Shown here in pieces: positions 9,758 to 20,636 of a stretch of DNA of 64,000 nucleotides. Source of the stretch: a virus. Taxonomy: Duplodnaviria; Caudoviricetes. The DNA is taken from positions 177,979 to 241,978 of IMG/VR virus record IMGVR_UViG_3300012952_003952; one strand, written 5' to 3'. Within the stretch, counting starts at the first letter, position 1; every line of letters starts with the position of its first letter. The position numbers and the translations under genes were made by a program. The notes under the pieces are model-generated. The model made no database searches. It saw only the letters and a list, made by a program, of their open reading frames with translations, and had not been told where the DNA came from.

Positions 9758-10606
9758 ATGAATTCGAAATACAAAAATTTAAATCAAGCCTTTGTAGAAG
9801 AGTTAGTCGATTGCCACAAGAACGGCGTAGAAGTTGAATCTCGTGGCTTCGTACAAAAAGAAAAACTTTTCTCTTCTTTTATAATTCAAGATCCCACCGA
9901 TTTGCGAATTGATGTCCCAGCTAGAAAGTTCAATGAAGACTATGCAATTTTAGAATGGCTTTGGTACCTAAACTCTGACTCTAGAATAAAGACTATCGGT
10001 AAATTTGCAGATATTTGGAACAAGATTGCAGATTCGCAAGGGGTCGTTGAGTCTAACTATGGCTCTTATTTAAAGCCGTGCTGGTATGACTTAGTAGATG
10101 AGCTTATATCTGATAGAGATACCCGTAGAGCAACTTGCGTAATTAATCAGCCATACCATAGGTTCAAAAACCCAAAAGACTATCCTTGTACGCACTATAT
10201 TCACTTTTTTATCAGAGAAGAAGCTCTTCACATGGGCGTATATATGCGGTCTAATGATGCAGTTTTTGGTTTTTGTAACGACGTTTTCACCTTTGCGTTG
10301 TTTCAACAGCTTATGCTAAATGAACTAAACGCTCGCGGTGGTAAACTTTCATTAGGAACATACTACCACTCGGCTGGAAGCTTTCACGTATACGATAGAC
10401 ATTATTCTATGATGGAAAAGATAGCTGAAAATTATTTTGTGAAAGCTAGAAGAAATGGGTATCCAACCGACTTAAAGAAAATAGTGCTAGATCCCAATTT
10501 AACCTGGCCGAAAATGGAAAACTACACGTCTTTTTTCAATGAAGACTTAGACAAAGAAGAAGTTTTAAATACAATTAAAAAGACTAAGGAAATTATATTC
10601 AAATGA
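9758..10606 (+). CDS. Thymidylate synthase homologue of dCMP hydroxymethylase/methylase type
   Basis: DTRRA, catalytic YPCT, MRSNDAVFGFCND with Asp at the position of the TS Asn (T4 gp42-like), AGSFHVY. Confidence 0.85.
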   Translation: MNSKYKNLNQAFVEELVDCHKNGVEVESRGFVQKEKLFSSFIIQDPTDLRIDVPARKFNEDYAILEWLWYLNSDSRIKTIGKFADIWNKIADSQGVVESNYGSYLKPCWYDLVDELISDRDTRRATCVINQPYHRFKNPKDYPCTHYIHFFIREEALHMGVYMRSNDAVFGFCNDVFTFALFQQLMLNELNARGGKLSLGTYYHSAGSFHVYDRHYSMMEKIAENYFVKARRNGYPTDLKKIVLDPNLTWPKMENYTSFFNEDLDKEEVLNTIKKTKEIIFK

Positions 10607-10884
10607 ATATTCTAAAAAAAGCAAATGAGATAATCAATGAAAGATCTGAAGAAAAAGAGCGCCAATACGGCCCAATGGGTGAAGGCCTTGAAAGAGCTGC
10701 GATGATTGCTTCTGGAATAACGGGTAAAGATTTAACAGCAGACGATATTTTTGCATGCCTCATCGGCCTTAAATTTTCTAGACATTCGTATAACTACAAA
10801 GAAGATAATTTTCTAGATGCTGCTGCTTATTTGGGAGCGTGGAACAATTACCAACAGGAGAAATTAAAAAGTGAAGATAAGTAA
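10603..10884 (+). CDS. DUF6378-like small all-alpha protein (putative dNTP pyrophosphohydrolase)
   Basis: ILKKANEIINER..E..RQYG, IGLKFSR, DNFLDAAAYL. Confidence 0.65.
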   Translation: MNILKKANEIINERSEEKERQYGPMGEGLERAAMIASGITGKDLTADDIFACLIGLKFSRHSYNYKEDNFLDAAAYLGAWNNYQQEKLKSEDK

Positions 10885-11305
10885 AGTAAGGGCAGTTAAA
10901 ACACCGCAAAGGGGGACTCCAGAGTCAGCTGGAATTGATTTTTTCGTGCCAGAGGGAATGATAGCTAAATTATCGCCTGGAGACTCTTGCTTGATGCCAA
11001 GCGGAATCAAAGCCAATGTTCCATCTGGCCATGCATTAATAGCGTTTAATAAGAGTGGAGTAGCAGTTAAGAAATCTCTTCACGTTGGGGCATGCGTCGT
11101 AGACGAAGATTATCAGGGCGAAATTCACCTTAATTTAATCAATGTTGGCTCGAGCGTTGCAGAGATAAAATCTGGAGAAAAAATAGTCCAATTTATTTTA
11201 CTTCCTGTTTTTTATGACACAATTGAAGAAGTAGAATTGGAAAACCTTTACGAAGACGAAACTGTTCGAGGTGAAGGTGGTTTTGGTAGCACGGGAGTAG
11301 AATAG
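10871..11305 (+). CDS. dut: Trimeric dUTPase
   Basis: AGIDF, KSG, VVDEDYQGEI, QFILLP, RGEGGFGSTG. Confidence 0.95.
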   Translation: MKISKVRAVKTPQRGTPESAGIDFFVPEGMIAKLSPGDSCLMPSGIKANVPSGHALIAFNKSGVAVKKSLHVGACVVDEDYQGEIHLNLINVGSSVAEIKSGEKIVQFILLPVFYDTIEEVELENLYEDETVRGEGGFGSTGVE

Positions 11306-12375
11306 TGGATTATTTTGTAGATTATGAAATTCCTAAAAACTTTAAGATAGGGATCGACGGACTAGAGAGAAACATTCCGGCTAGAAAACACAGCCACAAT
11401 GCTGCCTGGGTTCATCTCTACAAAAATATGCTACAATCTGCTGGCTGGAGTGATGTACACGTCTTAGGCAATCATGACACTTACGAAGGTTATGATGCTA
11501 TGATATTTTATCCAGGAATTGCTTACGCTGGAACGATTAACTTCTTTTTTGGAGTTGACGACAATGTAGTTAGAAGGTTCTCCAGAATTCAAGATTTTGA
11601 AGGTCCGACTTTTATTTTAAATCATGAAATGCCGCTCATTGGAGCGACGATCAGCAAAAGACTGCACAATAAATCGACAAGCTCGAAAATTGGAAATCTT
11701 AAACTGAGCTTATTAGATGATATTTGCAAATCTACTCGCAGAATAGATTATGTTGAAAGATCAACAAAGCTTTGCTTTGGAGACAGTCATTGTTTTTCTG
11801 CTTATCTTCCAGGGTATTCTGTTTGCCGAAATGACGGGCTCACTCTTTTTTCTACGCTTCGCGATGGAGTAAAAGAGACCATTGAAGAAAAATATGGAGC
11901 TTCTGTTGAAAATTTGACTCATCTTACTTTTTATATGGGCAATATTGATATAAGGCACCACTTGATGCGCCAAGAAAATCCATATGAAAAAATCCACGCT
12001 ATGACTATCGAGCTTTCACACCAGCTTAAAAAACTTGATATACCAAACATTGAACTAGTTCACGCACTGCCTATCGAAAATATTTCTAGAAAACTTCCTA
12101 AAACTGGATATTATAAGAAGACTCCATATTTCGGAACTTGGGAAGAAAGAACAAAATTAGTCAATACATTCAATGCCGCTGTAGATAGAATTTGTATAGA
12201 AAACAAATGGAATTCTTTCCACTGGCCAGCTAAATTTTTAAATGATTCTGGTGAATTAGACTTTGAATATATGGAGCGCCCTAAAAGCGTACACTTAAGC
12301 CCGCTTTCTTATAGGTGGGACCTTTTTGAAAATCAATTAAATTTATTGCATAGTAATCAAAACAACGGAGAATAA
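11305..12375 (+). CDS. Putative DNA-modification protein: BGT-like N-terminal region plus SGNH-hydrolase-like C-terminal domain
   Basis: YDAMIF...TINFFFG resembles T4 beta-glucosyltransferase YDRLIV..SINFFGG; FGDSH, MGNID, SVHL resemble SGNH blocks I, III, V. Confidence 0.45.
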   Translation: MDYFVDYEIPKNFKIGIDGLERNIPARKHSHNAAWVHLYKNMLQSAGWSDVHVLGNHDTYEGYDAMIFYPGIAYAGTINFFFGVDDNVVRRFSRIQDFEGPTFILNHEMPLIGATISKRLHNKSTSSKIGNLKLSLLDDICKSTRRIDYVERSTKLCFGDSHCFSAYLPGYSVCRNDGLTLFSTLRDGVKETIEEKYGASVENLTHLTFYMGNIDIRHHLMRQENPYEKIHAMTIELSHQLKKLDIPNIELVHALPIENISRKLPKTGYYKKTPYFGTWEERTKLVNTFNAAVDRICIENKWNSFHWPAKFLNDSGELDFEYMERPKSVHLSPLSYRWDLFENQLNLLHSNQNNGE

Positions 12376-12376
12376 T

Positions 12377-13567
12377 ATGCCAAAAAACAAGTCAATTAGA
12401 GTTGCAATCGTCGGAGTCGGAAATTGTGCTAATTCCTTTTACCAGGGCTTAACGTATTATGCGGGGTACACCGCTGGACAAGAGCGCGATGGAGTGATGA
12501 AGAGCCGAATCGGAGGATATTCGGTAGCTGATCTCGAGGTTGTAGCAGCATTCGACGTTGATAAACGAAAAGTTGGAAAGTGTTTTAGAGAAGCTATGCT
12601 AGCCAAACCAAACTGTACTCCAAGCTATGAGGCAAATGTTCCTGACGGTCCCGTAGTTCAAATGGGCCCAATCATGGACGGTGTTCCAAATTTGATGGCT
12701 AATTATTCTGATGAAGAAGCGTTTAGAACTGCTGATTTAGAACCAGTAGATGTGGCTCAAGTGTTATTAGACCGCAAAGTGGATATTCTTATCAACTATC
12801 TTCCTGTTGGTTCTCAGAAGGCCACCGAGTGGTATGCAGAACAGTGCCTTAAGACTGGAGTTTCTCTTCTTAACTGTATTCCAGTTTTTATTGCTTCTAA
12901 TCCAGTTTGGGAGCAAAAGTTTATTGATGCTGGAATTCCACTCGTTGGCGATGACATGAAATCTCAATTTGGGGCCTCTATTATGTCTCAAATGCTTCAA
13001 GAACTAGCTTTTGCTCGAGGTCTAAATGTTAAAGCTCACATTCAGCGAAATGTCGGTGGCAATACTGATTTCTTGAACATGGTAGATCAATCTCGGCTGA
13101 AATACAAGAAAGTTTCAAAGGAGAATGTAATTCGATCTCAACACGTAATTCGTGGTGTAGACCCCGAAGAATCTTTCCTCCATGCTGGGCCGTCTGAATA
13201 TATTCGCTACTATGGAGATAACAAGGTCGCAAACTTCCGAATTGAAATGGAGGGATTCCTTGGTGCCCCAGTTATTTTAGACGCGCAGCTTTCTGTAATT
13301 GACTCTCCTAACTCTGGAGGCGTTGTAATCGACGCCGCTCGGTATCTAAAAGTCGCCAGAGAGATGGGCATTGTAGGGGCTCTCAGAGGTCCGTCTGCTT
13401 TTACTCAGAAGACTCCGCCTCAACAGCTTATGTTTAGTGAAACTCTTTATGAATGCGACGCTCTTTCTGATAGGAGGCTCACTCGATTTACTAAGCGCCA
13501 AACAGAAAAATACAGCGCTGAAGAGCTTTACCTATCGTGTCCAGCAGGAAACAAGGAAGTAGATTAA
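12377..13567 (+). CDS. ino1: Inositol-3-phosphate (myo-inositol-1-phosphate) synthase
   Basis: AIVGVGNCA, INYLPVGSQKA, GDDMKSQFGA, NVGGNTDFLNM, GPSEY, DSPNSGGVVIDAAR. Confidence 0.95.
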   Translation: MPKNKSIRVAIVGVGNCANSFYQGLTYYAGYTAGQERDGVMKSRIGGYSVADLEVVAAFDVDKRKVGKCFREAMLAKPNCTPSYEANVPDGPVVQMGPIMDGVPNLMANYSDEEAFRTADLEPVDVAQVLLDRKVDILINYLPVGSQKATEWYAEQCLKTGVSLLNCIPVFIASNPVWEQKFIDAGIPLVGDDMKSQFGASIMSQMLQELAFARGLNVKAHIQRNVGGNTDFLNMVDQSRLKYKKVSKENVIRSQHVIRGVDPEESFLHAGPSEYIRYYGDNKVANFRIEMEGFLGAPVILDAQLSVIDSPNSGGVVIDAARYLKVAREMGIVGALRGPSAFTQKTPPQQLMFSETLYECDALSDRRLTRFTKRQTEKYSAEELYLSCPAGNKEVD

Positions 13568-14283
13568 TGGCTAAATTGCATGAGCAAAAAGGAAAACTTT
13601 TTAATCCAGACTCTGAAGATTTTGAAGAGTGTGTAATAAAGTTTAACGGAAGGAATGGGTTTTGGTACAGACCAGGCACTTTTGATTTAAATTCTATAAG
13701 AGAGTGCAGAGACAATTATAGCGATATTGACACTTGCGGGAAAACAGTTTTAGATTTAGGAGCCAACATTGGAGGATTTTCAAGAATGGCTCTAGAAAAA
13801 GGAGCTAAAAAAGTAATAGCTTTAGAGCCATGCCCTCATAATTTTCAAATTTTAGAGATCAATGCCCCAAATGCAGAATGTCTAAATGCTGCAGTTTGCG
13901 AAAGCAAGGTAAAAGAAGTAGTTTTTCATTATGCTGGATCTAAAAGAAACTCAGTGTCGTCTTCTACTCTTAAAAGAAGAAATGCTTCTGGAGTATCTAT
14001 TGCAGTACCAGGATTATCATTTTCAAGTCTTTTAGAAAAATATAGGCCAGAAATATTAAAAATAGACATTGAAGGTAAAGAGTACGACATTTTAGATTCT
14101 ATTAAAGAAATTCCAGATTTCGTAGAAATAGTAGGGATTGAGTTTCACAATACTCGTAAGCCATACTCAGAATATCCAGTTAAATTTTTCCCAGAGTCCA
14201 CTTGGAAGAAAGTAGAACACCCTATTTTGATGTTCGGACAGAAAAAAGTTTTAGATTACACTTTTTATAGAAAGTATGCATAG
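13567..14283 (+). CDS. FkbM-family SAM-dependent methyltransferase
   Basis: VLDLGANIGGFS, VIALEP, LKIDIEGKE; TAATG overlap with ino1 stop. Confidence 0.85.
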   Translation: MAKLHEQKGKLFNPDSEDFEECVIKFNGRNGFWYRPGTFDLNSIRECRDNYSDIDTCGKTVLDLGANIGGFSRMALEKGAKKVIALEPCPHNFQILEINAPNAECLNAAVCESKVKEVVFHYAGSKRNSVSSSTLKRRNASGVSIAVPGLSFSSLLEKYRPEILKIDIEGKEYDILDSIKEIPDFVEIVGIEFHNTRKPYSEYPVKFFPESTWKKVEHPILMFGQKKVLDYTFYRKYA

Positions 14284-14292
14284 GAAATATTA

Positions 14293-14709
14293 ATGAAAGT
14301 AAATGGTTTTGATATTGATGGAGTTATCCATCTTGGAGACGGAGTCTGCGGCATTCGCCCGGGCCCTGGAGATGTTATCATCACAGGACGAAGCTTTGAA
14401 GAAGAAGCTGAGACTCTAGCTTTTCTTCGGCGCAATGGAATTAATAACCCAGTTTTTTTTAACCAGTGCCATTATGAGGAAAAATCTCGAACAGGGTCAG
14501 GAAATCATAAGGCGGAAACTATTAAGCTTCTCCACAGAGCTGGCTTAAGCGTTCAATATTTTTTTGAAGATGATGAAGTTCAAAAAGCTGAAATTGAAAG
14601 AGGCATCGAAGAAGTCTCAACTTGGGGAATCGGAACTAAAGTTATTCACGTCAACAATCCTCATGTTAAGAAAGAAAATAGACGTCATTTAGAGGATTTA
14701 AATGAGTAA
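14293..14709 (+). CDS. Capless HAD-family phosphatase
   Basis: FDIDGVI, ITGRS, HKAETI, FFEDD. Confidence 0.8.
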   Translation: MKVNGFDIDGVIHLGDGVCGIRPGPGDVIITGRSFEEEAETLAFLRRNGINNPVFFNQCHYEEKSRTGSGNHKAETIKLLHRAGLSVQYFFEDDEVQKAEIERGIEEVSTWGIGTKVIHVNNPHVKKENRRHLEDLNE

Positions 14710-16156
14710 TTCTGAACTTCTTAAAATGAGGGATGAAGAACTCTTTGCAGAGATACCCACTTACAAAAAGCAAGATTTTGTCGACTTTATAAAAGAGCTT
14801 AACAGAAGAGAGTACTTAGTAAGATTTGCAAAGTCGTGTACTTTTGACTCTTTTGAGCATTTGCCTGGAACTGGATTTAAATACGGGAACGGCTTTATAG
14901 TAGACGGCAAATCAGTACCTTACTTCCACCCCAATCGTAGTTTTCATGATGAGATAATTTGGTTAAACGAGAACCTATTCTATAATCCCCAAGCTACGTT
15001 TGAAGATAAACTTATTAATGCGGCGATAGTGAAATTCTATGGGCCTTCTAATACCCTTAAACTAATTGCTGAGGGCACCGGCAAGAAATTCGTGGACTAC
15101 AAGAGGTTCGTGGGAGATCCTAAATACTTGAGGCAGGTTTGCGTCAATTTAGAAACAGCAGTTAAGAATAAAGAAAAGATTTATGGAACAACTGAGCTTA
15201 GGACAAGCTTACAAACAGCTGGTAGAAATTATGCTAGAAGCGTTGGTTCTCCAATTGATAAAATAGAATTAATTCCAGTTTCTGAAAGGAAATCTCGTAC
15301 GTGCCGTCCCTCTGATATTCTTTTTTGGTTTACTAAAATCGGCCCTGATTTTGTTAAATTTTATAAAACAACACCCAACATGGAAGAGTCTTTTAAGTTT
15401 TTAAATTCATTTCGAGGAATTGGAAATTATTATGGATACCATTTTAGTTGTAACCTTGCTCGAATGCCAGAAGTAGGAAATTTAATTTTTAAGGGAACTC
15501 CTGGAAAAATTGACGAAGACGACGAGTATGTAGTTCCTGGGGTTGGAGCAATGCAAGCGATTAATTGGTTTTATGAACACAGGGGACACTCAATTAATAC
15601 AAAAGTTGGAAAGAAATTAATCAATGCTATTCGACGTCACCAAAATAGTTTCTTTGACTTAAATAATGCTGATAATTCTAAATTCTATATGGAAAAAGTT
15701 TCTGAACTGGGATATTTTACTAATTTTGGATGTGAAATATCTTGCTGCCAGTTTGGAGTTTATCGTCGACTAAGAGAAGATAAAAAATTAGCTCTAAGGA
15801 GAGCAGCAGCGCCAATATCAAGAGAGGAAGTAAAAATGATTCTTACGCCCAAAACACTAATGCAAAAACTCGGTCTTTTATCTGAAGAAGATTCTAATGT
15901 TGAAAATAAAAATCAAAGTATTGAAAAAGATTCTTCACTAGATTTTTCTTCGACTAGCAAAGAAGACTTGATCCTTAACATCATTGATGAAGCTGGAGGT
16001 TCTTGTTCACATTCTTCAGTTGCTAAATTAATCGAAGAAAAAGGATACACTCAGTATAAGCAAAATGGTTCTTGGAAAGAGAGCTGGATGATAATGAGGC
16101 AACTTGTTGAAAAGGGGGCCTTAGTAAAAGACGGAAAATTTTATCGGAGGTCATAG
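14702..16156 (+). CDS. aGPT-Pplase1 / 5-hmdU DNA kinase helical-domain-like protein with C-terminal winged-helix-like tail
   Basis: YFHPNRSFHDEIIW, RGIGNYYGYHFSCNL, DEDDEYVVPGVGA, CEISCCQFGVYRR follow the family pattern (F.N..R..D...W; G.G.F..Y....DL; D.....GPGA; E...CE..KY.R). Confidence 0.7.
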   Translation: MSNSELLKMRDEELFAEIPTYKKQDFVDFIKELNRREYLVRFAKSCTFDSFEHLPGTGFKYGNGFIVDGKSVPYFHPNRSFHDEIIWLNENLFYNPQATFEDKLINAAIVKFYGPSNTLKLIAEGTGKKFVDYKRFVGDPKYLRQVCVNLETAVKNKEKIYGTTELRTSLQTAGRNYARSVGSPIDKIELIPVSERKSRTCRPSDILFWFTKIGPDFVKFYKTTPNMEESFKFLNSFRGIGNYYGYHFSCNLARMPEVGNLIFKGTPGKIDEDDEYVVPGVGAMQAINWFYEHRGHSINTKVGKKLINAIRRHQNSFFDLNNADNSKFYMEKVSELGYFTNFGCEISCCQFGVYRRLREDKKLALRRAAAPISREEVKMILTPKTLMQKLGLLSEEDSNVENKNQSIEKDSSLDFSSTSKEDLILNIIDEAGGSCSHSSVAKLIEEKGYTQYKQNGSWKESWMIMRQLVEKGALVKDGKFYRRS

Positions 16157-17334
16157 TGTCAGATATTAAGTGGGGAACAATTATTCCTCTTATTGGCGGA
16201 AGCGCTATAGGGTGCTCACAAGCTACTAAAAATAAACCAGAGTTTCATCTTAGCTACTCTGCTTTCGGCGCTAACGAAAAATATCTAACTGACTACTGGA
16301 AAGATGTTCCGAGAATAGTTTTAGATGAAGGTGGAAAAATACCAAACGAAAAAATTGATTTTATCAATTCTGTTTGTCCGTGCGCAGGCCTAAGCCAGCT
16401 TAATACTTCTAGAAGTAAAGATATGCGTGAATCTAAAAACTATTGGATGTACGAATCTGCACAGAGAATCTTAAGCGAACTACGCCCTAGAGTTTATTGG
16501 GGAGAAAATGCGCCCGGCCTTTTTACTAATTCAGGCGCGTACGTGCGTGATAAGCTTAAAGTTTTTGCTAAAGAAAACGGCTACACTTTTTCTCTTTACA
16601 AGACCGATACGCAAAGGCACGGTATTCCGCAACGCAGAGTAAGAACTTTTTACTTTTTCTGGAGAGACACTAACCCTCCTCTCTTGAGCTATTTTAATAA
16701 CCCTCCCATTCCATTCGCCGAGTACATAAGACAGATACCGCAATCTGCAACCCTTCAAGATCAATTTAACATCGAAGGGAAAATCTCTGAAAATTTTGAT
16801 TCTTATGCTTTTGTGTTACAATATCTTGGGTTGGCGCATGAAGAGTTCGTGAAGTCTAATGATTCTGGCTCTATTCACTCTATTTTTTCTTATCTATCAG
16901 AAAATAATCTTTTAGCCGAGTGTATTGAGTGGATTGAAAAAAGAAATATTGAAGAAACTGCAGAACACAGACGACTCAAAGCTATTTACAAAAAAGTTCA
17001 AGCGGGTGGAAGATTTATGGATGCTTCTCCTGGATATTATTACAACCGCACTAATGCAATCGTAGGAAGAACCTTGACCCATTTAGTACACCCCACTGAA
17101 GACAGAGGGATGTCTATTAGAGAGCTTCTTCATATGATGGGACTGCCCCATGATTTTGAAATGGGCGATAGAAAATCTCTAAATGTAATCGCTCAAAATG
17201 TTCCAACTTGTACAGCTAGAGATATGGCAAGTCAAGTTATAGAATACTTAAGAGGTGATTTACAAATTGCAGAAAACAGCTTTTTAATGCAAAATAACCT
17301 AAAAGAGGAGATTACATTATGCGAGCCCTTGTAA
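16156..17334 (+). CDS. C5-cytosine methyltransferase-fold protein with atypical motif I
   Basis: Motif IV VCPCAGLS, VI WGENAP, VIII PQRRVRTFY, IX/X RELLHMMGLP..F, QNVP; motif I is PLIGG; GTG start. Confidence 0.8.
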   Translation: MSDIKWGTIIPLIGGSAIGCSQATKNKPEFHLSYSAFGANEKYLTDYWKDVPRIVLDEGGKIPNEKIDFINSVCPCAGLSQLNTSRSKDMRESKNYWMYESAQRILSELRPRVYWGENAPGLFTNSGAYVRDKLKVFAKENGYTFSLYKTDTQRHGIPQRRVRTFYFFWRDTNPPLLSYFNNPPIPFAEYIRQIPQSATLQDQFNIEGKISENFDSYAFVLQYLGLAHEEFVKSNDSGSIHSIFSYLSENNLLAECIEWIEKRNIEETAEHRRLKAIYKKVQAGGRFMDASPGYYYNRTNAIVGRTLTHLVHPTEDRGMSIRELLHMMGLPHDFEMGDRKSLNVIAQNVPTCTARDMASQVIEYLRGDLQIAENSFLMQNNLKEEITLCEPL

Positions 17335-18305
17335 CTGGCGGATGCGGTTTTATCGGATCTTGTTTAACTAAAAAATTGGTAGATTTAGGCTGGGACGTAG
17401 AAATAGTAGATGATATGTCTAATGGAGATTATTCTTTTTTAGAAGAGTATTCTTTTCGTAGCGTCCCTGTTCAAATGGGACATATTTTCGAAAATCAAAA
17501 TTTGAAAAAAGATGACGTTATTACTGTTTTGGTAGGAGATTTTGTTAGCCAAGAAGTTGTTAGAAGGATTGTTGAAAAAAAATATGACGTAATTTTTCAC
17601 CTTGCAGCTAACCCAAGAGTAGAATACTCGGTGCAAAATCCGCTAGAGACTACAGACGAAAACCTTACAAAGACCATAAGGCTTTTTACTCATGCTGTGG
17701 GTAATGTCAAGAGAGTTGTTTTTTCTTCTAGTTGCTCAGTGTATGGAGACCCTTGGAGTCTTCCAACTACAGAAAGCCATGGAAAAAACCCTAACAGTCC
17801 TTATGCTCTTCAAAAGCAATGTGTTGAAGAATACGCTAAACTCTACTCAAAAATATATGATTTAGATGTAGCTTGCTTGAGGTACTTTAACGTATATGGT
17901 CCATTTCAGCATGGCGACTCTCCTTACTCTACTGCCATAGTTTCTTGGTGTGATAAAGTATCTAAGGGTTTGCCTCTTCGGAGTGATGGAGATGGCACTC
18001 AATCTAGAGACATGGTTTTTGTAGAAGATGTAGCGCGAGCTAATATTTTAGCTGCTACTAGAGAAGAAAATTTCAATGGAAAGTCTATAAACATAGGAAG
18101 CGGCGCTTCTTATACCAATAATCAGATTTTAGATATTTTTAAAAATCAATTTGGAAATTTAGAAATCACACATGCTCCAGAACGGCCTGGAGACGTAAAG
18201 CACACGCAAGCAGATGTTAAAGAAGCTAGATCTAAATTAGGCTTTACTACTGAATACAGCTTAGAAGAAGGGTTGAAAAAGACCTTTGCTTGGTGGGACT
18301 TATAA
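17319..18305 (+). CDS. NAD-dependent nucleotide-sugar epimerase/dehydratase (extended SDR)
   Basis: VTGGCGFIGS, HLAA, SSCSVYG, YALQK, LRYFNVYGP, RDMVFVEDVA. Confidence 0.92.
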   Translation: MRALVTGGCGFIGSCLTKKLVDLGWDVEIVDDMSNGDYSFLEEYSFRSVPVQMGHIFENQNLKKDDVITVLVGDFVSQEVVRRIVEKKYDVIFHLAANPRVEYSVQNPLETTDENLTKTIRLFTHAVGNVKRVVFSSSCSVYGDPWSLPTTESHGKNPNSPYALQKQCVEEYAKLYSKIYDLDVACLRYFNVYGPFQHGDSPYSTAIVSWCDKVSKGLPLRSDGDGTQSRDMVFVEDVARANILAATREENFNGKSINIGSGASYTNNQILDIFKNQFGNLEITHAPERPGDVKHTQADVKEARSKLGFTTEYSLEEGLKKTFAWWDL

Positions 18306-18859
18306 TGACAAACCCTCAATTCATTATTTTTACTGGACCGATGTTTGGAGGCAAGACCACGAGGCTATTGTCTGCTTTAGATAGATACGTTCACCAAAAG
18401 AAAGATGTTTTAGCTTTCAAGCCAGATATCGACAAAAGGTACGGGAAAGAGTCTATTAACACTCACACTGGCGGAAAGATTGATGCCATCAGAGTTGCGA
18501 CTGGTGAAGATATAGCACAATGCGTTCTAGAAAAAGCAGAAAATAAGTTGGTAGAAATCATTGCAGTAGATGAAGCTTTCATGATACCCGGCTCTGCTAA
18601 CGTGCTAATAAATCTTTTCAACAAAGGATTCACTATCTTGATATCTACTTTACAGCTATGTTCTGACGGTACGTCTTATAAAGAAATTAGAGAAATGATG
18701 CCTTGGGCTACTAAAATAGAAATCTGCCCTGCGGTTTGTACAGTGTGTGGATCCGATGCGTATTACACTTTTAAAAAAGGCGGAAATAGCCACCAGCAAA
18801 TTGAAGTTGGAGGAGCTGATTTATACGAGCCCCGCTGTTTAACTCACTTTGAATTTTGA
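18305..18859 (+). CDS. tdk: Thymidine kinase
   Basis: GPMFGGKTT, FKPDIDKRY, VDEAF, C..C Zn site, IEVGGADLYEPRC. Confidence 0.93.
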   Translation: MTNPQFIIFTGPMFGGKTTRLLSALDRYVHQKKDVLAFKPDIDKRYGKESINTHTGGKIDAIRVATGEDIAQCVLEKAENKLVEIIAVDEAFMIPGSANVLINLFNKGFTILISTLQLCSDGTSYKEIREMMPWATKIEICPAVCTVCGSDAYYTFKKGGNSHQQIEVGGADLYEPRCLTHFEF

Positions 18860-18916
18860 ATAATTAATGAAATTATTCCCACTTTTTATTATAATATAGA
18901 TAGAGGACTATGAAAT

Positions 18917-19345
18917 ATGCCTGAATACAAAAGCTCTTGGAAATCAAAATCATCTAGTCATTTGACCCCATGGGGATCTGAGATCCGGTGGGCTGCTACT
19001 TCTGGCTGTGTAGGTAAATGTTTAAGCGTAAAAAAGGGAATGAGAACCAGTTTAAAGTACTATAAAATGAAAGATGAAGTGCTATTTTTGTATCGCGGCA
19101 AAATATTGGTTACTCACGGAGACGAGAAAACTATAGAAGATCCAACTCGCCACCCGTATGTTAAAAGCTATCTTGCTCCAGGAGAGATGGTGATAATTCA
19201 AAGCGGTTGTCCTTATAGAATAGAAGCTTTAGAAGATTCTGAAGTTATTGAGATAGGAACGAACCGCGGTGCTGGAATTGGTGACCGAGTTATGGTAGAA
19301 GATGATTTTGGTAGAGTAGAAAAACCAGAAAGTGGAGAAATATAA
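18917..19345 (+). CDS. Cupin-fold protein (mannose-6-phosphate isomerase type II-like)
   Basis: TPWGSE, TSLKYY..KDE, YRIEALEDSEVIEIG, RVMVEDDFGR. Confidence 0.7.
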   Translation: MPEYKSSWKSKSSSHLTPWGSEIRWAATSGCVGKCLSVKKGMRTSLKYYKMKDEVLFLYRGKILVTHGDEKTIEDPTRHPYVKSYLAPGEMVIIQSGCPYRIEALEDSEVIEIGTNRGAGIGDRVMVEDDFGRVEKPESGEI

Positions 19346-20245
19346 ATGATCGTAAGTGATCCATCTTCAGTAAACGTGGTAATTTATCACGCCGATTGTA
19401 CGGACGGTTTCGGCGCAGCATATTCAGCTTGGAAACTCCTCGGCAATCGCGCAGAGTACTACGCTTGTAAGCACGGAACGCCACCGCCTGAAGTAAAAGA
19501 CAAAAACGTTGTAATCTTAGATTTTTCTTTTGATAATGCGACGACTAAAAAAATGATAGAAGAAGCATCTGCTTTATTGGTTATTGATCACCATAAATCA
19601 GCAGTAGTAGAGCTTCACGATATCAGCAACACTATTTTTGATATGACAAAGTCTGGAGCTATGTTATCATGGGAATGGTTTCATCCAGGAAAAGAGCCGC
19701 CAAAATTTATAAAATACATTCAAGACAGAGATTTGTGGAAGTGGGAACTTGATTATTCTAAAGAGTTTAGCGCTGCGTTTGATATGGTGCCATTCGAGTT
19801 TGAAGAGTTTGAAAAATTTGAAGACGATTCAGTTTTTGATGATGCAGTAAAACGAGGTTCTTACATTTTAGCTTATAGTAAAACCGTCGTCAAGAAAGTA
19901 TGCGAAAAAGCCCAACCTAGAAAAATGGATGGGAAAGATGTTTTGGTGGTTAACGCTTCTCACTGGATGTCTGAGATTGGCTCAAGGCTAGCTCCTGATT
20001 GTGATTTCGCAATGATATGGTATTGGGATCATGATGCACAGCATACAAAAGTTTCTCTGAGAGCTTTTCATGACGCGGTTGATGTTTCTGAGATCTCGAA
20101 GAAGTTTGGCGGAGGTGGCCATAAAAAAGCAGGAGGGTTTCAACTTCCTAAGAATAAACACGTAGAAGATTTATTCGACAAACCAAAACCAGCAAGAAAG
20201 AAAAGAGCTTCAAAAACAAAGGTTAAACAAGATGAGTCGTCCTAG
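19346..20245 (+). CDS. DHH/DHHA1 phosphoesterase (NrnB/oligoribonuclease-like)
   Basis: YHADCTDGFGAA, ILDFS, IDHH, QDRDLW, GGGGHKKAGG. Confidence 0.88.
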   Translation: MIVSDPSSVNVVIYHADCTDGFGAAYSAWKLLGNRAEYYACKHGTPPPEVKDKNVVILDFSFDNATTKKMIEEASALLVIDHHKSAVVELHDISNTIFDMTKSGAMLSWEWFHPGKEPPKFIKYIQDRDLWKWELDYSKEFSAAFDMVPFEFEEFEKFEDDSVFDDAVKRGSYILAYSKTVVKKVCEKAQPRKMDGKDVLVVNASHWMSEIGSRLAPDCDFAMIWYWDHDAQHTKVSLRAFHDAVDVSEISKKFGGGGHKKAGGFQLPKNKHVEDLFDKPKPARKKRASKTKVKQDESS

Positions 20246-20636
20246 TTGGGATCAGATCTGGATGAATTTTGCAGAATCTATTTCTGAAAGATCTTATGAT
20301 CCAAGGTTTCAAGTTGGAGCAGTCGTTGTAACTGAAGACAACAGCCAGGTTTTAGCTGTTGGATACAATGGAAATTATGCCGGCGGACCCAATCAAGTAG
20401 AGTCAGAAACCCCTGGAGAGTCTGGTATGCTACATGCTGAAATTAATGCGCTCTTAAAAATGGATTATAATAACCCTAAAAAGAAAAAGCTTTATTTAAC
20501 TCTATCGCCTTGTAGAATGTGCGCAAAGGCTATAATTAATAGTGGAATTAAAGAAGTAGTCTACGCTGAAGCTTACAGGGATCTTTCGGGGATAAAACTT
20601 TTAAAAGAATGTGGCATATCAGTAAGACACTTTTGA
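20232..20636 (+). CDS. dCMP deaminase-family protein
   Basis: QVGAVVV, GYNG, HAEINAL, SPCRMCAK. Confidence 0.88.
   Translation: MSRPSWDQIWMNFAESISERSYDPRFQVGAVVVTEDNSQVLAVGYNGNYAGGPNQVESETPGESGMLHAEINALLKMDYNNPKKKKLYLTLSPCRMCAKAIINSGIKEVVYAEAYRDLSGIKLLKECGISVRHF

What the first reader, a model, noticed from the sequence alone, without database searches (positions are those of the whole stretch)
14702..16156. 5-hmdU DNA kinase-type helical protein in a cytosine context, with an added winged-helix tail
Seen: aGPT-Pplase1-like motif series with substitutions (PGVGA for GPGA; CCQFGVY for CE..KY) and a ~65-aa C-terminal wHTH-like segment. Known: characterised relatives act in 5hmU (thymidine) hypermodification. 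Inference: here the partner TS is dCMP-type, so this may be a version acting on hmC, or one with inositol phosphate as co-substrate.
Basis: partly seen in the sequence, partly recalled or inferred. Interest (0 to 1): 0.7.

Follow-up and report, generated by a model that had tools for sequence, protein, structure and literature searches.

The report
Cysteine enzyme for inositol-linked hydroxymethylcytosine DNA
This gene of an uncultured marine T4-like giant phage encodes a DNA-base-modifying enzyme related to those that decorate thymine, but here it sits with genes that make hydroxymethylcytosine and inositol, which points to an undescribed and so far chemically unproven decoration of cytosine in phage DNA.

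Summary
Window 14702-16156 (+) is a real 484-aa gene. Residues 1-378 are a helical domain that passes Pfam PF18723 (HMUDK_hel, formerly aGPT-Pplase1). A disordered linker leads to a 69-aa winged helix.

New here:
- The Glu-x3-Cys pair that is catalytic in amino-acid:DNA transferases (PaMx11 gp46) is invariant in 147 homologues, so the protein is probably an enzyme, not just a "kinase helical domain".
- In 80 viral contigs (27-91% identity) the gene travels with an SGNH-domain protein (78/80), inositol-3-phosphate synthase (77/80) and a small HAD phosphatase (77/80). It never travels with a 5-hmdU kinase or an AADT.
- It is fused, in either order, to the SGNH protein and to an FkbM methyltransferase.
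- All 34 scorable neighbouring thymidylate-synthase homologues carry the 5-hydroxymethyl-dCMP signature.

Best reading (about 0.45): the base-flipping Cys transferase of a kinase-free pathway that puts an inositol-derived group on 5hmC in DNA. The chemistry is inferred, not shown. Cultured Aeromonas phages 44RR2.8t and 31 carry the fused form, so the idea is testable.

The scan had already flagged this cluster on overlapping windows of the same genome, not on other DNA.

The parts
14702..16156 (+). Whole gene, 484 aa (P0001): helical core, linker and winged helix
   Evidence: ORF list and translation; AlphaFold model with mean pLDDT 88.4
14702..15835 (+). Helical catalytic-type core, residues 1-378 (PF18723-like, HhH-glycosylase-like fold), net charge +11
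   Evidence: Pfam 29.5 bits against cut-off 25. Best non-wHTH PDB match is 8z2m_A, PaMx11 gp46 glycinyltransferase: Z 9.5, rmsd 4.7 A, 228 residues, model range 22-378. Next is QNG1/DUF2419 at Z 9.2. Charge.
14918..14953 (+). Nearly invariant block PYFHPNRSFHDE (residues 73-84)
   Evidence: Invariant in alignment A1. In 147 homologues H76 is kept in 131, R79 in 124 and D83 in 132.
15185..15214 (+). Invariant block GTTELRTSLQ (residues 162-171); S169 is kept in 147 of 147
15416..15442 (+). GIGNYYGYH hairpin (residues 239-247), the HhH-like motif. It aligns with gp46 FGPWIGFK, which holds the wedge residue W146.
   Evidence: the role of gp46 W146 is from PMC11472151
15536..15550 (+). PGVGA (residues 279-283), a variant of the family's GPGA. 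G280 and G282 are (near-)invariant. The motif aligns at gp46 K174-D175-P176, the pocket loop.
15734..15748 (+). E345-I-S-C-C349: the Glu-x3-Cys pair, with E345 and C349 kept in 147 of 147 homologues. The same spacing occurs in PaMx11 gp50 (E-H-T-L-C) and in gp46 (E243-T-I-L-C247, C247 being the catalytic nucleophile).
   Evidence: gp46 Cys247; loss of activity on Cys or Glu mutation in M6 gp51 and ViI gp247 from PMC8989533
15836..15946 (+). Acidic disordered linker, residues 379-415, variable in length and sequence among homologues
   Evidence: pLDDT 31-63; alignment A1; net charge -3
15947..16153 (+). Winged helix-turn-helix, residues 416-484, with the conserved signature N-W-K-E-S/T-W in helix 3
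   Evidence: Model topology; Z 10.6 and rmsd 1.8 A to MecI; Foldseek probability 0.99-1.0 to small winged helices. The same tail sits on cores only 32-34% identical (P0250, P0252, P0254).
11305..12375 (+). Partner P0003, 356 aa: N-terminal alpha/beta domain plus SGNH/GDSL-fold domain with invariant G-D-S-H 159-162 and N213. It is fused to the target's family in other phages.
   Evidence: phrog_17781 spans both proteins; model pLDDT 89; Foldseek E 1e-4 and VIA Z 12.8 to GDSL esterases and O-acetyltransferases; fusions; present in 78 of 80 loci
12377..13567 (+). Inositol-3-phosphate synthase (MIPS), 396 aa
   Evidence: PF01658 at 78.8 bits; TIGR03450 at 328 bits over its full length; present in 77 of 80 loci
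13537..14283 (+). FkbM-family methyltransferase, 248 aa; an accessory gene that is fused to the target's family in some phages
   Evidence: PF05050; TIGR01444; 47 of 80 loci; fusions P0076, P0264 and P0267
14293..14709 (+). Small HAD-type phosphatase, 138 aa (motif I D-I-D-G-V); translationally coupled to the target gene
   Evidence: Sequence; phrog_415; present in 77 of 80 loci
9758..10606 (+). Thymidylate-synthase homologue with the 5-hydroxymethyl-dCMP synthase signature (D/D/D at ThyA positions L143/D169/N177)
   Evidence: PDB hits MilA at 5.9e-23 and T4 gp42 at 2.4e-20; diagnostic residues from PMC13326640; motif check
16156..17334 (+). C5-cytosine-methyltransferase-like protein, 392 aa; an accessory gene immediately downstream
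   Evidence: PF00145 at 65.7 bits; the P-C, E-N-x and Q-R-R motifs are aligned; 34 of 80 loci

Best explanation
P0001 is most likely the DNA-acting, base-flipping transferase of a conserved phage module that further modifies 5-hydroxymethylcytosine (5hmC) after replication.

Proposed steps, with their status:
1. The phage makes 5hm-dCMP with its thymidylate-synthase homologue and incorporates it into DNA. This is inferred from active-site signatures.
2. MIPS and the small HAD phosphatase supply inositol-3-phosphate or inositol. The family assignments are shown; their role here is inferred.
3. P0001 binds DNA through its basic helical core, helped by the winged-helix tail, and flips out 5hmC. 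Cys349 attacks C6 while Glu345 assists, as in amino-acid:DNA transferases. The 5-substituent leaves, giving an exocyclic methylene that is captured by a hydroxyl of inositol or inositol phosphate, which forms an ether. All of this is inferred by homology and context.
4. The SGNH-domain partner P0003, which is fused to this family in other phages, takes the place of the P-loop kinase of the thymine systems. It may activate the hydroxymethyl group, for example by O-acylation. This is speculative.
5. FkbM and the C5-methyltransferase-like protein are optional tailoring enzymes. This is inferred from their patchy distribution and from the fusions.
For: Family and fold:
- PF18723 is passed above its cut-off.
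- The core's best PDB match outside winged helices is the 5-PmdU glycinyltransferase gp46: Z 9.5 over 228 residues.
- The order HhH-like hairpin, then pocket loop, then Glu-x3-Cys is collinear with gp46. The spacing from pocket loop to Glu/Cys is 65/69 residues here and 68/72 in gp46.

Catalytic potential:
- E345 and C349 are kept in 147 of 147 homologues found by searches that did not use the motif.
- They are also kept in the canonical gp50.
- The equivalent Cys and Glu are essential in M6 gp51 and ViI gp247, and Cys247 contacts the flipped base in gp46.
- The clan already forms ether links: ViI gp247 is a serine:DNA transferase (Table 1 of PMC8989533), and its product 5-NeOmdU is 5-(2-aminoethoxy)methyl-dU (named in the abstract listed). 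That the serine is joined through its oxygen is my reading of that product name.

Context:
- In 80 IMG/VR loci at 27-91% identity, P0003 is present in 78, MIPS in 77 and HAD in 77. No gp46-like AADT and no gp49-like kinase was found.
- Fusions exist as P0003-HEL, HEL-P0003, FkbM-HEL and FkbM-HEL-P0003, where HEL stands for this protein's family.
- All 34 scorable neighbouring TS homologues, the window's and that of 44RR are D/D/D, the hydroxymethyl-dCMP type.
- 44RR2.8t has gene 42 and a sodium/solute symporter next to the fused gene, but no MIPS.
- The core is basic, at net +11.
Against: - There are no chemical data: no nucleoside analysis of any phage that carries the module was found.
- PF18723 proteins were dispensable in the published thymine reconstitutions, so the family has no proven activity.
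- Profile-profile similarity to AADT is weak (probability 35.7%, E 3.9e-4) and covers only the central region, not the Glu-x3-Cys helix.
- Z 9.5 for an all-helical domain lies within the range the tool warns can be a common arrangement.
- No activating enzyme has been identified. Ether formation from two free alcohols is not favourable without activation.
- The residue after the Cys is Gln here, Glu in canonical clade 1 and Lys in gp46, so the active sites differ.
- A C5-methyltransferase-like enzyme in the same operon could carry out the Cys-C6 chemistry instead.
- 5hm-dCMP could in principle be deaminated to 5hm-dUMP by the phage dCMP deaminase, so 5hmU in the DNA is not strictly excluded.
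- The genome record is only about 57% complete, so a kinase could lie elsewhere.
Confidence: 0.45

Rival explanations
1. P0001 is a non-catalytic, or only base-flipping, DNA-targeting subunit. It presents 5hmC to partner enzymes (the SGNH protein P0003, the FkbM methyltransferase, the HAD phosphatase). This would parallel the way PF18723 is thought to accompany the P-loop kinase in thymine systems.
For: Pfam names the family 'helical domain of 5-hmdU DNA kinase'. In PaMx11 the canonical member gp50 directly follows the kinase gp49. The family is fused to three different kinds of enzyme domain, which is typical of a shared targeting module. Clade-1 proteins were not needed for catalysis in vitro. 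There is an extra winged helix and a basic core.
Against: A pure recognition module would not be expected to keep Glu345, Cys349 and Gln350 in 147 of 147 sequences down to about 25% identity, at the exact positions of the catalytic pair of AADT. No other protein of the conserved four-gene core has a fold known to do chemistry at pyrimidine C5.
Confidence: 0.25
2. The protein acts before replication on free nucleotides (5hm-dCMP or 5hm-dCTP), as a glycosylase-like or transferase enzyme of the nucleotide pool, and not on DNA.
For: Its second-best structural relative is QNG1/DUF2419, a nucleotide-processing member of the HhH-like fold (Z 9.2). The operon sits among nucleotide-pool genes: TS homologue, dUTPase, dCMP deaminase, thymidine kinase and MazG-like proteins. 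One relative has a Nuc_deoxyri_tr2 gene inside the module.
Against: The closest enzymatic relatives (AADT) act on polymeric DNA with a flipped base. A winged-helix tail recurs on divergent cores, and the core is basic. Bulky base adducts in phages are as a rule installed after replication (introduction of PMC13326640).
Confidence: 0.1
3. The inositol genes are an auxiliary metabolic pair that is not connected to DNA. P0001 would then be a DNA glycosylase-like repair or anti-defence protein, or would attach a group other than inositol.
For: 44RR-type phages keep the P0003-HEL fusion without MIPS or HAD. No activated inositol donor, such as a cytidylyltransferase, is encoded in the module.
Against: MIPS and HAD lie directly beside the gene in 77 of 80 loci across very divergent phages and in several gene orders, which is hard to explain without a shared pathway. 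In 44RR a solute symporter occupies the neighbouring position. No catalytic Asp/Lys pattern of HhH glycosylases was detected, and Pfam HhH-GPD does not match.
Confidence: 0.1
4. It is an ordinary clade-1 aGPT-Pplase working on 5-hydroxymethyluracil, as in M6, ViI and PaMx11.
For: It matches PF18723. A dCMP deaminase is encoded nearby and could in theory deaminate 5hm-dCMP.
Against: No dUMP-type hydroxymethylase is present: all TS homologues have Asp at N177. No 5-HMUDK (PF18748) and no AADT (PF18724) is found in the record or in the 80 loci. T4 also has a dCMP deaminase together with gp42 and contains no hmU (textbook knowledge). The Pfam score is marginal, at 29.5 bits against 141 bits for gp50.
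Confidence: 0.03

Closest known systems
PF18723 proteins (HMUDK_hel, formerly aGPT-Pplase clade 1): PaMx11 gp50, M6 gp55, ViI gp160
   Same: The Pfam model is passed. They share the hairpin G-I/L-G...Y, the G-P-G-A loop, the Glu-x3-Cys helix, and invariant W209, G241, G280, G282, E345 and C349 in a joint alignment.
   Different: Identity is only 16% and the score is marginal. The residue after the Cys is Gln, not Glu. The core is about 85 aa longer and has its own invariant blocks (PYFHPNRSFHDE, GTTELRTSLQ). There is a winged-helix tail. The neighbours are MIPS, HAD and the SGNH protein instead of a P-loop kinase, AADT and a dUMP hydroxymethylase. The context is cytosine-type. The function of the canonical members is itself unknown.
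Amino-acid:DNA transferases (AADT, PF18724, aGPT-Pplase clade 2): PaMx11 gp46/PUGT (PDB 8z2m), M6 gp51, ViI gp247
   Same: It is the best structural match of the core (Z 9.5, 228 residues). The order of motifs is collinear. Glu-x3-Cys has the same spacing, and that Cys is the proven nucleophile and the Glu is essential. These enzymes act on a flipped 5-substituted pyrimidine in DNA. The clan forms C-N links, and by my reading of the ViI product (5-(2-aminoethoxy)methyl-dU) also C-O links.
   Different: There is no PF18724 hit even at E 10. Identity is 9% in the structural alignment. hhalign gives only 35.7% probability. AADTs need 5-phosphomethyl-dU made by a kinase that is absent here. The base is uracil there and probably cytosine here.
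T4 alpha/beta-glucosyltransferases and the RB69/DLP3 arabinosyltransferases
   Same: They decorate a 5-hydroxy(methyl)cytosine of T4-like phage DNA after replication, downstream of a TS-homologue that acts on dCMP.
   Different: Those are nucleotide-sugar-dependent glycosyltransferases, described as structurally similar to bacterial UDP-sugar glycosyltransferases (PMC13326640). No such enzyme lies in this module. Here the donor pathway is MIPS/HAD and the candidate transferase is a helical Cys enzyme. RB69-type TS homologues carry D169N (5-hydroxy-dCMP), which is not the case here.
QNG1/DUF2419, queuosine-5'-monophosphate glycosylase (PDB 7ugk, 7u07)
   Same: Fold-level resemblance of the helical core: Z 9.2 and 8.8 over 230-247 residues.
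   Different: Identity is 6-10%. It acts on a free nucleotide and cleaves a glycosidic bond. No shared motifs were tested.
Prokaryotic inositol-phosphate condensing systems (MshA/MshA2 of mycothiol, DIPP synthase, PIP synthase). Cited from general knowledge, not tested here.
   Same: The logic is the same: MIPS makes inositol-phosphate, a transferase couples it, and a dedicated phosphatase removes the phosphate.
   Different: The transferase folds and the acceptors are unrelated. Whether the phage HAD acts before or after coupling is unknown.

Membership tests
PF18723 HMUDK_hel (aGPT-Pplase clade 1) | Score above Pfam's gathering threshold | tested here: met
   29.5 bits against 25, E 6.2e-7; 28.3 bits in the genome scan. 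Most homologues carry a precomputed PF18723 hit.
PF18723 HMUDK_hel (aGPT-Pplase clade 1) | Family motifs: HhH-like hairpin, GPGA loop, and a conserved Cys with a nearby Glu | tested here: met
   The joint alignment with PaMx11 gp50 has invariant G241, G280, G282, E345 and C349. Two variants occur: PGVGA for GPGA and CQ for CE.
PF18723 HMUDK_hel (aGPT-Pplase clade 1) | Genomic association with, or fusion to, a P-loop 5-hmdU DNA kinase (PF18748) | tested here: not met
   There is no PF18748 match in the 242-kb record. No gp49-like hit and no conserved Walker-A protein lies within 6-10 kb in the 80 loci. The adjacent small ORF is a HAD phosphatase. The record is about 57% complete.
PF18723 HMUDK_hel (aGPT-Pplase clade 1) | 5-hydroxymethyluracil context (dUMP hydroxymethylase with Asn at ThyA N177) | tested here: not met
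   The window's TS homologue, that of 44RR and 34 of 34 scorable neighbours have Asp at N177, Asp at L143 and Asp at D169.
PF18724 AADT (amino-acid:DNA transferase, aGPT-Pplase clade 2) | Match to the family HMM | tested here: not met
   No hit at E up to 10. No match in the whole record. The positive control gp46 scores 97 bits.
PF18724 AADT (amino-acid:DNA transferase, aGPT-Pplase clade 2) | Shared fold with the solved member (8z2m) | tested here: inconclusive
   VIA-align gives Z 9.5, rmsd 4.7 A and 228 aligned of 287; it is the top hit that is not a winged helix. Foldseek finds nothing. The tool warns that Z below 13 for helical proteins can be a common arrangement. hhalign gives probability 35.7%.
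PF18724 AADT (amino-acid:DNA transferase, aGPT-Pplase clade 2) | Catalytic Cys with a Glu four residues upstream on the same helix | tested here: met
   gp46 has E243-x3-C247 and P0001 has E345-x3-C349, at matching distance from the pocket loop. The pair is kept in 147 of 147 homologues. The equivalence rests on sequence position and spacing, not on a superposed active site.
PF18724 AADT (amino-acid:DNA transferase, aGPT-Pplase clade 2) | Group transfer onto the C5-methylene of a pyrimidine in DNA | not testable with these tools
   This needs an enzyme assay with hmC-DNA and LC-MS.
Winged helix-turn-helix domain | H1-S1-H2-H3-S2-S3 topology and superposition on solved winged helices | tested here: met
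   DSSP of the model for residues 419-483. Z 10.6 with rmsd 1.8 A over 65 residues to MecI, Z 9.6-10.0 to Fur- and BlaI-type domains. Foldseek probability 0.99-1.0. There is no Pfam hit for the tail alone.
Winged helix-turn-helix domain | Binds DNA | not testable with these tools
   The tail's net charge is only +2, with helix 3 plus wing at +4. Protein-binding winged helices (RPA32C, cullin WHB) match about as well.

The most novel reading that the evidence does not exclude
P0001 founds a cytosine-directed, kinase-independent branch of the aGPT-Pplase/AADT clan: a 'cyclitol:DNA transferase' that links myo-inositol, optionally O-methylated by FkbM, through an ether to the 5-methylene of 5hmC. 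This would give an inositol-bearing DNA base that is widespread in marine T4-like phages. It would also be the first activity assigned to any PF18723 protein.
Probability: 0.3. Interest if true: 0.9.

Novelty: new variant of a known kind. Interest (0 to 1): 0.7.

Why it matters
All known phage pyrimidine hypermodifications built by this enzyme clan are on thymine, and all start with a kinase. Here the same catalytic scaffold (Glu-x3-Cys) is found without a kinase in phages whose thymidylate-synthase homologues are of the hydroxymethylcytosine type. It is tied to inositol synthesis on hundreds of marine viral contigs.

If the reading is right, three things follow:
- It adds a new chemical class, a cyclitol, to natural DNA modifications.
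- It gives the first function to Pfam PF18723.
- It shows an alternative way to activate a 5-hydroxymethyl group.

Such bases matter for how phages evade restriction and CRISPR defences, and as handles for DNA-labelling chemistry. Cultured Aeromonas phages (44RR2.8t, 31, AS4, the avDM series) carry the fused core enzyme, so the question can be tested directly by nucleoside mass spectrometry.

Tried and rejected
- An apparent HAD-HEL-wHTH fusion of 601-608 aa in loci L014-L017 was an artefact of my ORF caller, which chose an upstream out-of-frame-looking start. BLAST shows that the homology begins at residue 88-94 and that the extension has no HAD similarity. I rejected it.
- Complex prediction of P0003 with the P0001 core gave 'no answer' (score 0.00). 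This is not evidence either way.
- Foldseek against the PDB gave nothing for the helical core, only winged-helix hits for the tail.
- An HMM profile of the family against PDB sequences gave only chance hits with E above 0.4.
- Single-sequence hhalign against gp50 and gp46 was uninformative.
- Megablast of the operon against cultured phages found no match.
- Sequencing runs: the stretch is held by marine or seawater metagenome DNA runs, and no RNA holder is listed.
- The literature searches found no paper that links MIPS or inositol to phage DNA modification, and none on the DNA composition of 44RR or 31. The library is limited to open-access papers.
- I considered the upstream 138-aa ORF as the missing P-loop kinase because it hits phrog_415, 'polynucleotide kinase'. 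I rejected this: it has the HAD motif DxDGV and no Walker A.
- I considered a Z-alpha identity for the tail. I rejected it as unsupported: the hits (Z 8.2-8.8) rank below ordinary repressor winged helices, and the conserved residues differ.
- The NCBIfam scan gave no family for P0001, P0002 or P0003.
- The substrate of the symporter next to the 44RR fusion could not be narrowed beyond 'sodium/solute symporter'.
Full report
**What is there**

Window 14702-16156 (+) is an intact ORF of 484 aa, here called P0001. It lies in a run of tightly packed same-strand genes. Its ATG overlaps the stop of the upstream 138-aa gene by 8 nt, and its stop overlaps the GTG start of the next gene. The window is the last 64 kb of a 242-kb IMG/VR viral record with an estimated completeness of 57%.

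Pfam gives a single hit: PF18723 HMUDK_hel, 29.5 bits against a cut-off of 25, residues 89-357. PF18723 appears to be the family that the literature calls aGPT-Pplase clade 1, since PaMx11 gp50, which follows the kinase gene as aGPT-Pplase1 does in M6-like phages, scores 141 bits on it. PF18724 is now named 'ADDT' (clade 2, amino-acid:DNA transferase), and PF18746 is clade 3. Neither matches anything in the record.

- PGVGA at residues 279-283.
- CCQFGVY at residues 348-354.

The canonical PaMx11 gp50 reads PGPGA and C-E-F-D-K-Y at those places.

**Structure**

An AlphaFold model built on 38 homologues has mean pLDDT 88.4. It shows three parts:
- an all-helical core, residues 1-378;
- a disordered acidic linker, residues 379-415;
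- a C-terminal H-S-H-H-S-S winged helix, residues 416-484.

The tail superposes on MecI, BlaI, Fur and other winged helices, with Z up to 10.6 and rmsd 1.8 A over 65 residues. Foldseek gives these small domains probability 0.99-1.0.

For the core, Foldseek finds nothing. The exhaustive VIA-align search ranks 8z2m_A first among non-winged-helix chains. That chain is the 5-phosphomethyl-dU glycinyltransferase gp46 of phage PaMx11: Z 9.5, rmsd 4.7 A, 228 of 287 residues, model range 22-378. The queuine-salvage glycosylase QNG1/DUF2419 follows at Z 9.2. The tool warns that such Z values are not decisive for helical proteins. I therefore treat the fold match as supportive only in combination with the Pfam hit and the motif evidence below.

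**A conserved catalytic pair**

In AADTs a Cys and a neighbouring Glu are essential (M6 gp51 and ViI gp247; PMC8989533). In the gp46-DNA structure Cys247 contacts the flipped base (PMC11472151). The Glu-x3-Cys spacing recurs across the three groups:

| Protein | Motif |
|---|---|
| gp46 | E243-T-I-L-C247 |
| gp50, canonical clade 1 | E-H-T-L-C |
| P0001 | E345-I-S-C-C349 |

In a 20-sequence alignment that runs from P0001 to gp50 at 16% identity, only six positions are invariant: W209, G241, G280, G282, E345 and C349. Among 147 full-length homologues collected by HMMER and word-based searches that did not use the motif, six positions are kept in every sequence: E345, C349, Q350, S169, W209 and G282.

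A profile-profile comparison with an AADT alignment is weak (probability 35.7%, E 3.9e-4). It does align the hairpin GIGxYYGYH with gp46 FGPWIGFK, which holds the wedge residue W146. It also aligns the PG(V/P)G loop with gp46 K-D175-P, the pocket loop. From that loop, Glu and Cys lie 65 and 69 residues downstream in P0001 and 68 and 72 residues downstream in gp46. The proteins are therefore collinear.

This argues that P0001 is an enzyme of the Cys-to-C6 Michael-addition type rather than an inert 'helical domain'. No PF18723 protein has a demonstrated activity: M6 gp55 and ViI gp160 were dispensable in the published reconstitutions.

**Cytosine, not thymine**

The thymidylate-synthase homologue at 9758-10606 matches MilA (5.9e-23) and T4 gp42 (2.4e-20) far better than true thymidylate synthases. 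A 2026 paper showed that MilA-like phage TS homologues can instead be 5-hydroxy-dCMP synthases, recognisable by D169N in E. coli ThyA numbering. Hydroxymethylases keep D169 and have an acidic residue at L143 and Asp at N177 (PMC13326640).

The window's protein reads D-Y-P-C-T ... R-S-N-D-A-V-F-G-F-C-N-D, which is D/D/D. The same holds for gene 42 of Aeromonas phage 44RR2.8t and for all 34 scorable TS homologues next to related modules. By this signature the base supplied to the pathway is predicted to be 5hmC.

**Conserved neighbourhood**

A pattern-plus-tblastn scan of IMG/VR returned 276 relatives. I kept the best 80 loci, at 27-91% identity. The table gives what lies within 10 kb of the P0001 homologue.

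| Neighbour | Loci (of 80) |
|---|---|
| P0003 homologue (window 11305-12375) | 78 |
| Inositol-3-phosphate synthase (MIPS) | 77 |
| 120-150-aa HAD phosphatase | 77 |
| FkbM methyltransferase | 47 |
| DUF6378 | 37 |
| TS homologue | 36 |
| C5-methyltransferase-like protein | 34 |
| gp46-like AADT | 0 |
| gp49-like kinase | 0 |
| Conserved Walker-A protein | none found |

Gene order differs between clades:
- P0003-MIPS-HAD-FkbM-HEL in one clade;
- MIPS-HAD-HEL-P0003-C5MT in another;
- P0003-MIPS-FkbM-HAD-HEL-C5MT-epimerase in the window's clade.

HEL stands for the P0001 family. The association therefore does not come from one frozen operon. MIPS is a full-length match to TIGR03450 at 328 bits. 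The HAD protein has the DxDGV motif and no P-loop.

**Fusions**

PHROG 17781 is a 795-position profile whose first half matches P0003 and whose second half matches P0001. Its members include ORF233c of Aeromonas phages 44RR2.8t and 31. Database representatives show every combination:
- P0003-HEL (P0122, P0098);
- HEL-P0003 in the opposite order (P0065);
- FkbM-HEL (P0076, P0267);
- FkbM-HEL-P0003 (P0264).

Independent fusions in both orders are classic evidence that the proteins act together or consecutively.

P0003 itself is modelled at pLDDT 89. It has an N-terminal alpha/beta domain and a C-terminal SGNH/GDSL domain with invariant G-D-S-H and Asn (Foldseek E 1e-4; VIA Z 12.8).

44RR2.8t has gene 42 but no MIPS. 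A sodium/solute symporter gene sits directly upstream of the fusion.

**The tail**

The winged helix is not peculiar to the window's subclade. Cores only 32-34% identical (P0250, P0252, P0254) carry the same tail, with a strongly conserved N-W-K-E-S/T-W...L-V-K-x-G helix 3. Most family members lack it. Its net charge is modest (+2), while the core is +11. Whether it binds DNA or a protein cannot be decided here.

**Interpretation**

The parsimonious reading has three parts:
- a supply module: MIPS plus HAD, or a symporter in 44RR;
- a transfer module: P0003 plus P0001;
- optional tailoring: FkbM and the C5-methyltransferase-like protein.

I propose that P0001 flips 5hmC out of DNA, that Cys349 attacks C6 with Glu345 assisting, and that an exocyclic methylene is captured by a hydroxyl of inositol or inositol phosphate. 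Within the clan, ViI gp247 is a serine:DNA transferase and its product is 5-(2-aminoethoxy)methyl-dU, which I read as an ether link formed through the serine oxygen.

The weak point is activation. The thymine systems use a kinase, and none is found here. P0003 is the only other universally conserved enzyme and is repeatedly fused to HEL, so it is my candidate for that step, for example by O-acylation. That is speculation.

The rivals are listed with probabilities in the report sections: a targeting subunit, action on the nucleotide pool, inositol unrelated to DNA, and ordinary hmU chemistry. I put 0.45 on the main reading and about 0.8 on the weaker claim that the protein takes part in a post-replicative modification pathway of 5hmC.

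**Relation to known families and novelty**

By HMM and motifs P0001 is a peripheral member of PF18723. It fails two contextual hallmarks of that family, kinase association and hmU context. It is not a PF18724 member, although it keeps that family's catalytic pair.

No paper in the searchable library links MIPS or inositol to phage DNA modification, or describes the DNA of 44RR or 31. I rate it a new variant of a known kind.

The scan had already noted this cluster on overlapping windows of the same genome (e1-5367042, e1-5367067, e1-5367059). I reached the MIPS link independently. I add the catalytic-pair conservation, the 80-locus statistics, the fusion catalogue and the D169 test.

Noticed in passing
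window 16156-17334 (+): A C5-cytosine-methyltransferase-like protein keeps the P-C (motif IV), G-E-N (motif VI) and Q-R-R (motif VIII) elements but has a degenerate motif I. It sits in a phage predicted to replace C with 5hmC, where C5 is already occupied. It follows the module in 34 of 80 related loci. It may do Cys-C6 chemistry on 5hmC rather than methylate.
   Followed up: partly
L001 6307-7830 (Aeromonas phage 44RR2.8t ORF234c): A 507-aa sodium/solute symporter (TIGR00813, 272 bits) is encoded directly upstream of the fused P0003-HEL gene in a phage that lacks MIPS and HAD. This suggests that the co-substrate is imported instead of synthesised. The substrate could not be assigned.
   Followed up: partly
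protein P0264 (981 aa, metagenomic): A triple fusion, FkbM methyltransferase - HEL - P0003, in one polypeptide. P0065 has HEL-P0003 in the opposite order to the 44RR fusion.
   Followed up: yes
window 10603-10884 (+), and the 155-aa ORF downstream of HEL in loci L018-L043 (e.g. L020 11228-11695): DUF6378 (93 aa, present in 37 of 80 loci) and a 155-aa protein with a MazG-like E..E...D pattern recur beside the module. They are candidate dCTP pyrophosphatases that would exclude unmodified C.
   Followed up: no
model of window 11305-12375 compared with the ESM Atlas: The whole P0003 fold (TM 0.56, 248 residues) recurs inside proteins of about 970 aa from Nucleocytoviricota that also carry Gly_transf_sug and Glyco_transf_8 domains. 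This hints that the fold works in glycan or polyol transfer in giant viruses too.
   Followed up: no
proteins P0259, P0261, P0280, P0281, P0287, P0288, P0291, P0294: Stand-alone proteins of 95-148 aa match only the winged-helix tail of P0001. The tail may therefore also exist as a separate gene, or these may be fragments. Their contexts were not examined.
   Followed up: no
window 17319-20636 (+): Downstream genes found mostly in the window's own subclade: a GalE-like epimerase/dehydratase, thymidine kinase, a 142-aa cupin (phrog 'cysteine dioxygenase') and a 299-aa protein with weak NrnA/RecJ DHH similarity. A dCMP deaminase is also there and is the most widespread of them (32 of 80 loci). 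The first four may tailor the adduct or be unrelated.
   Followed up: no
L007 7167-7637: In one T4-like relative a Nuc_deoxyri_tr2 (nucleoside deoxyribosyltransferase-like) gene lies between MIPS and HAD, where other phages have no P0003 upstream. I did not test whether it relates to the N-terminal domain of P0003.
   Followed up: no
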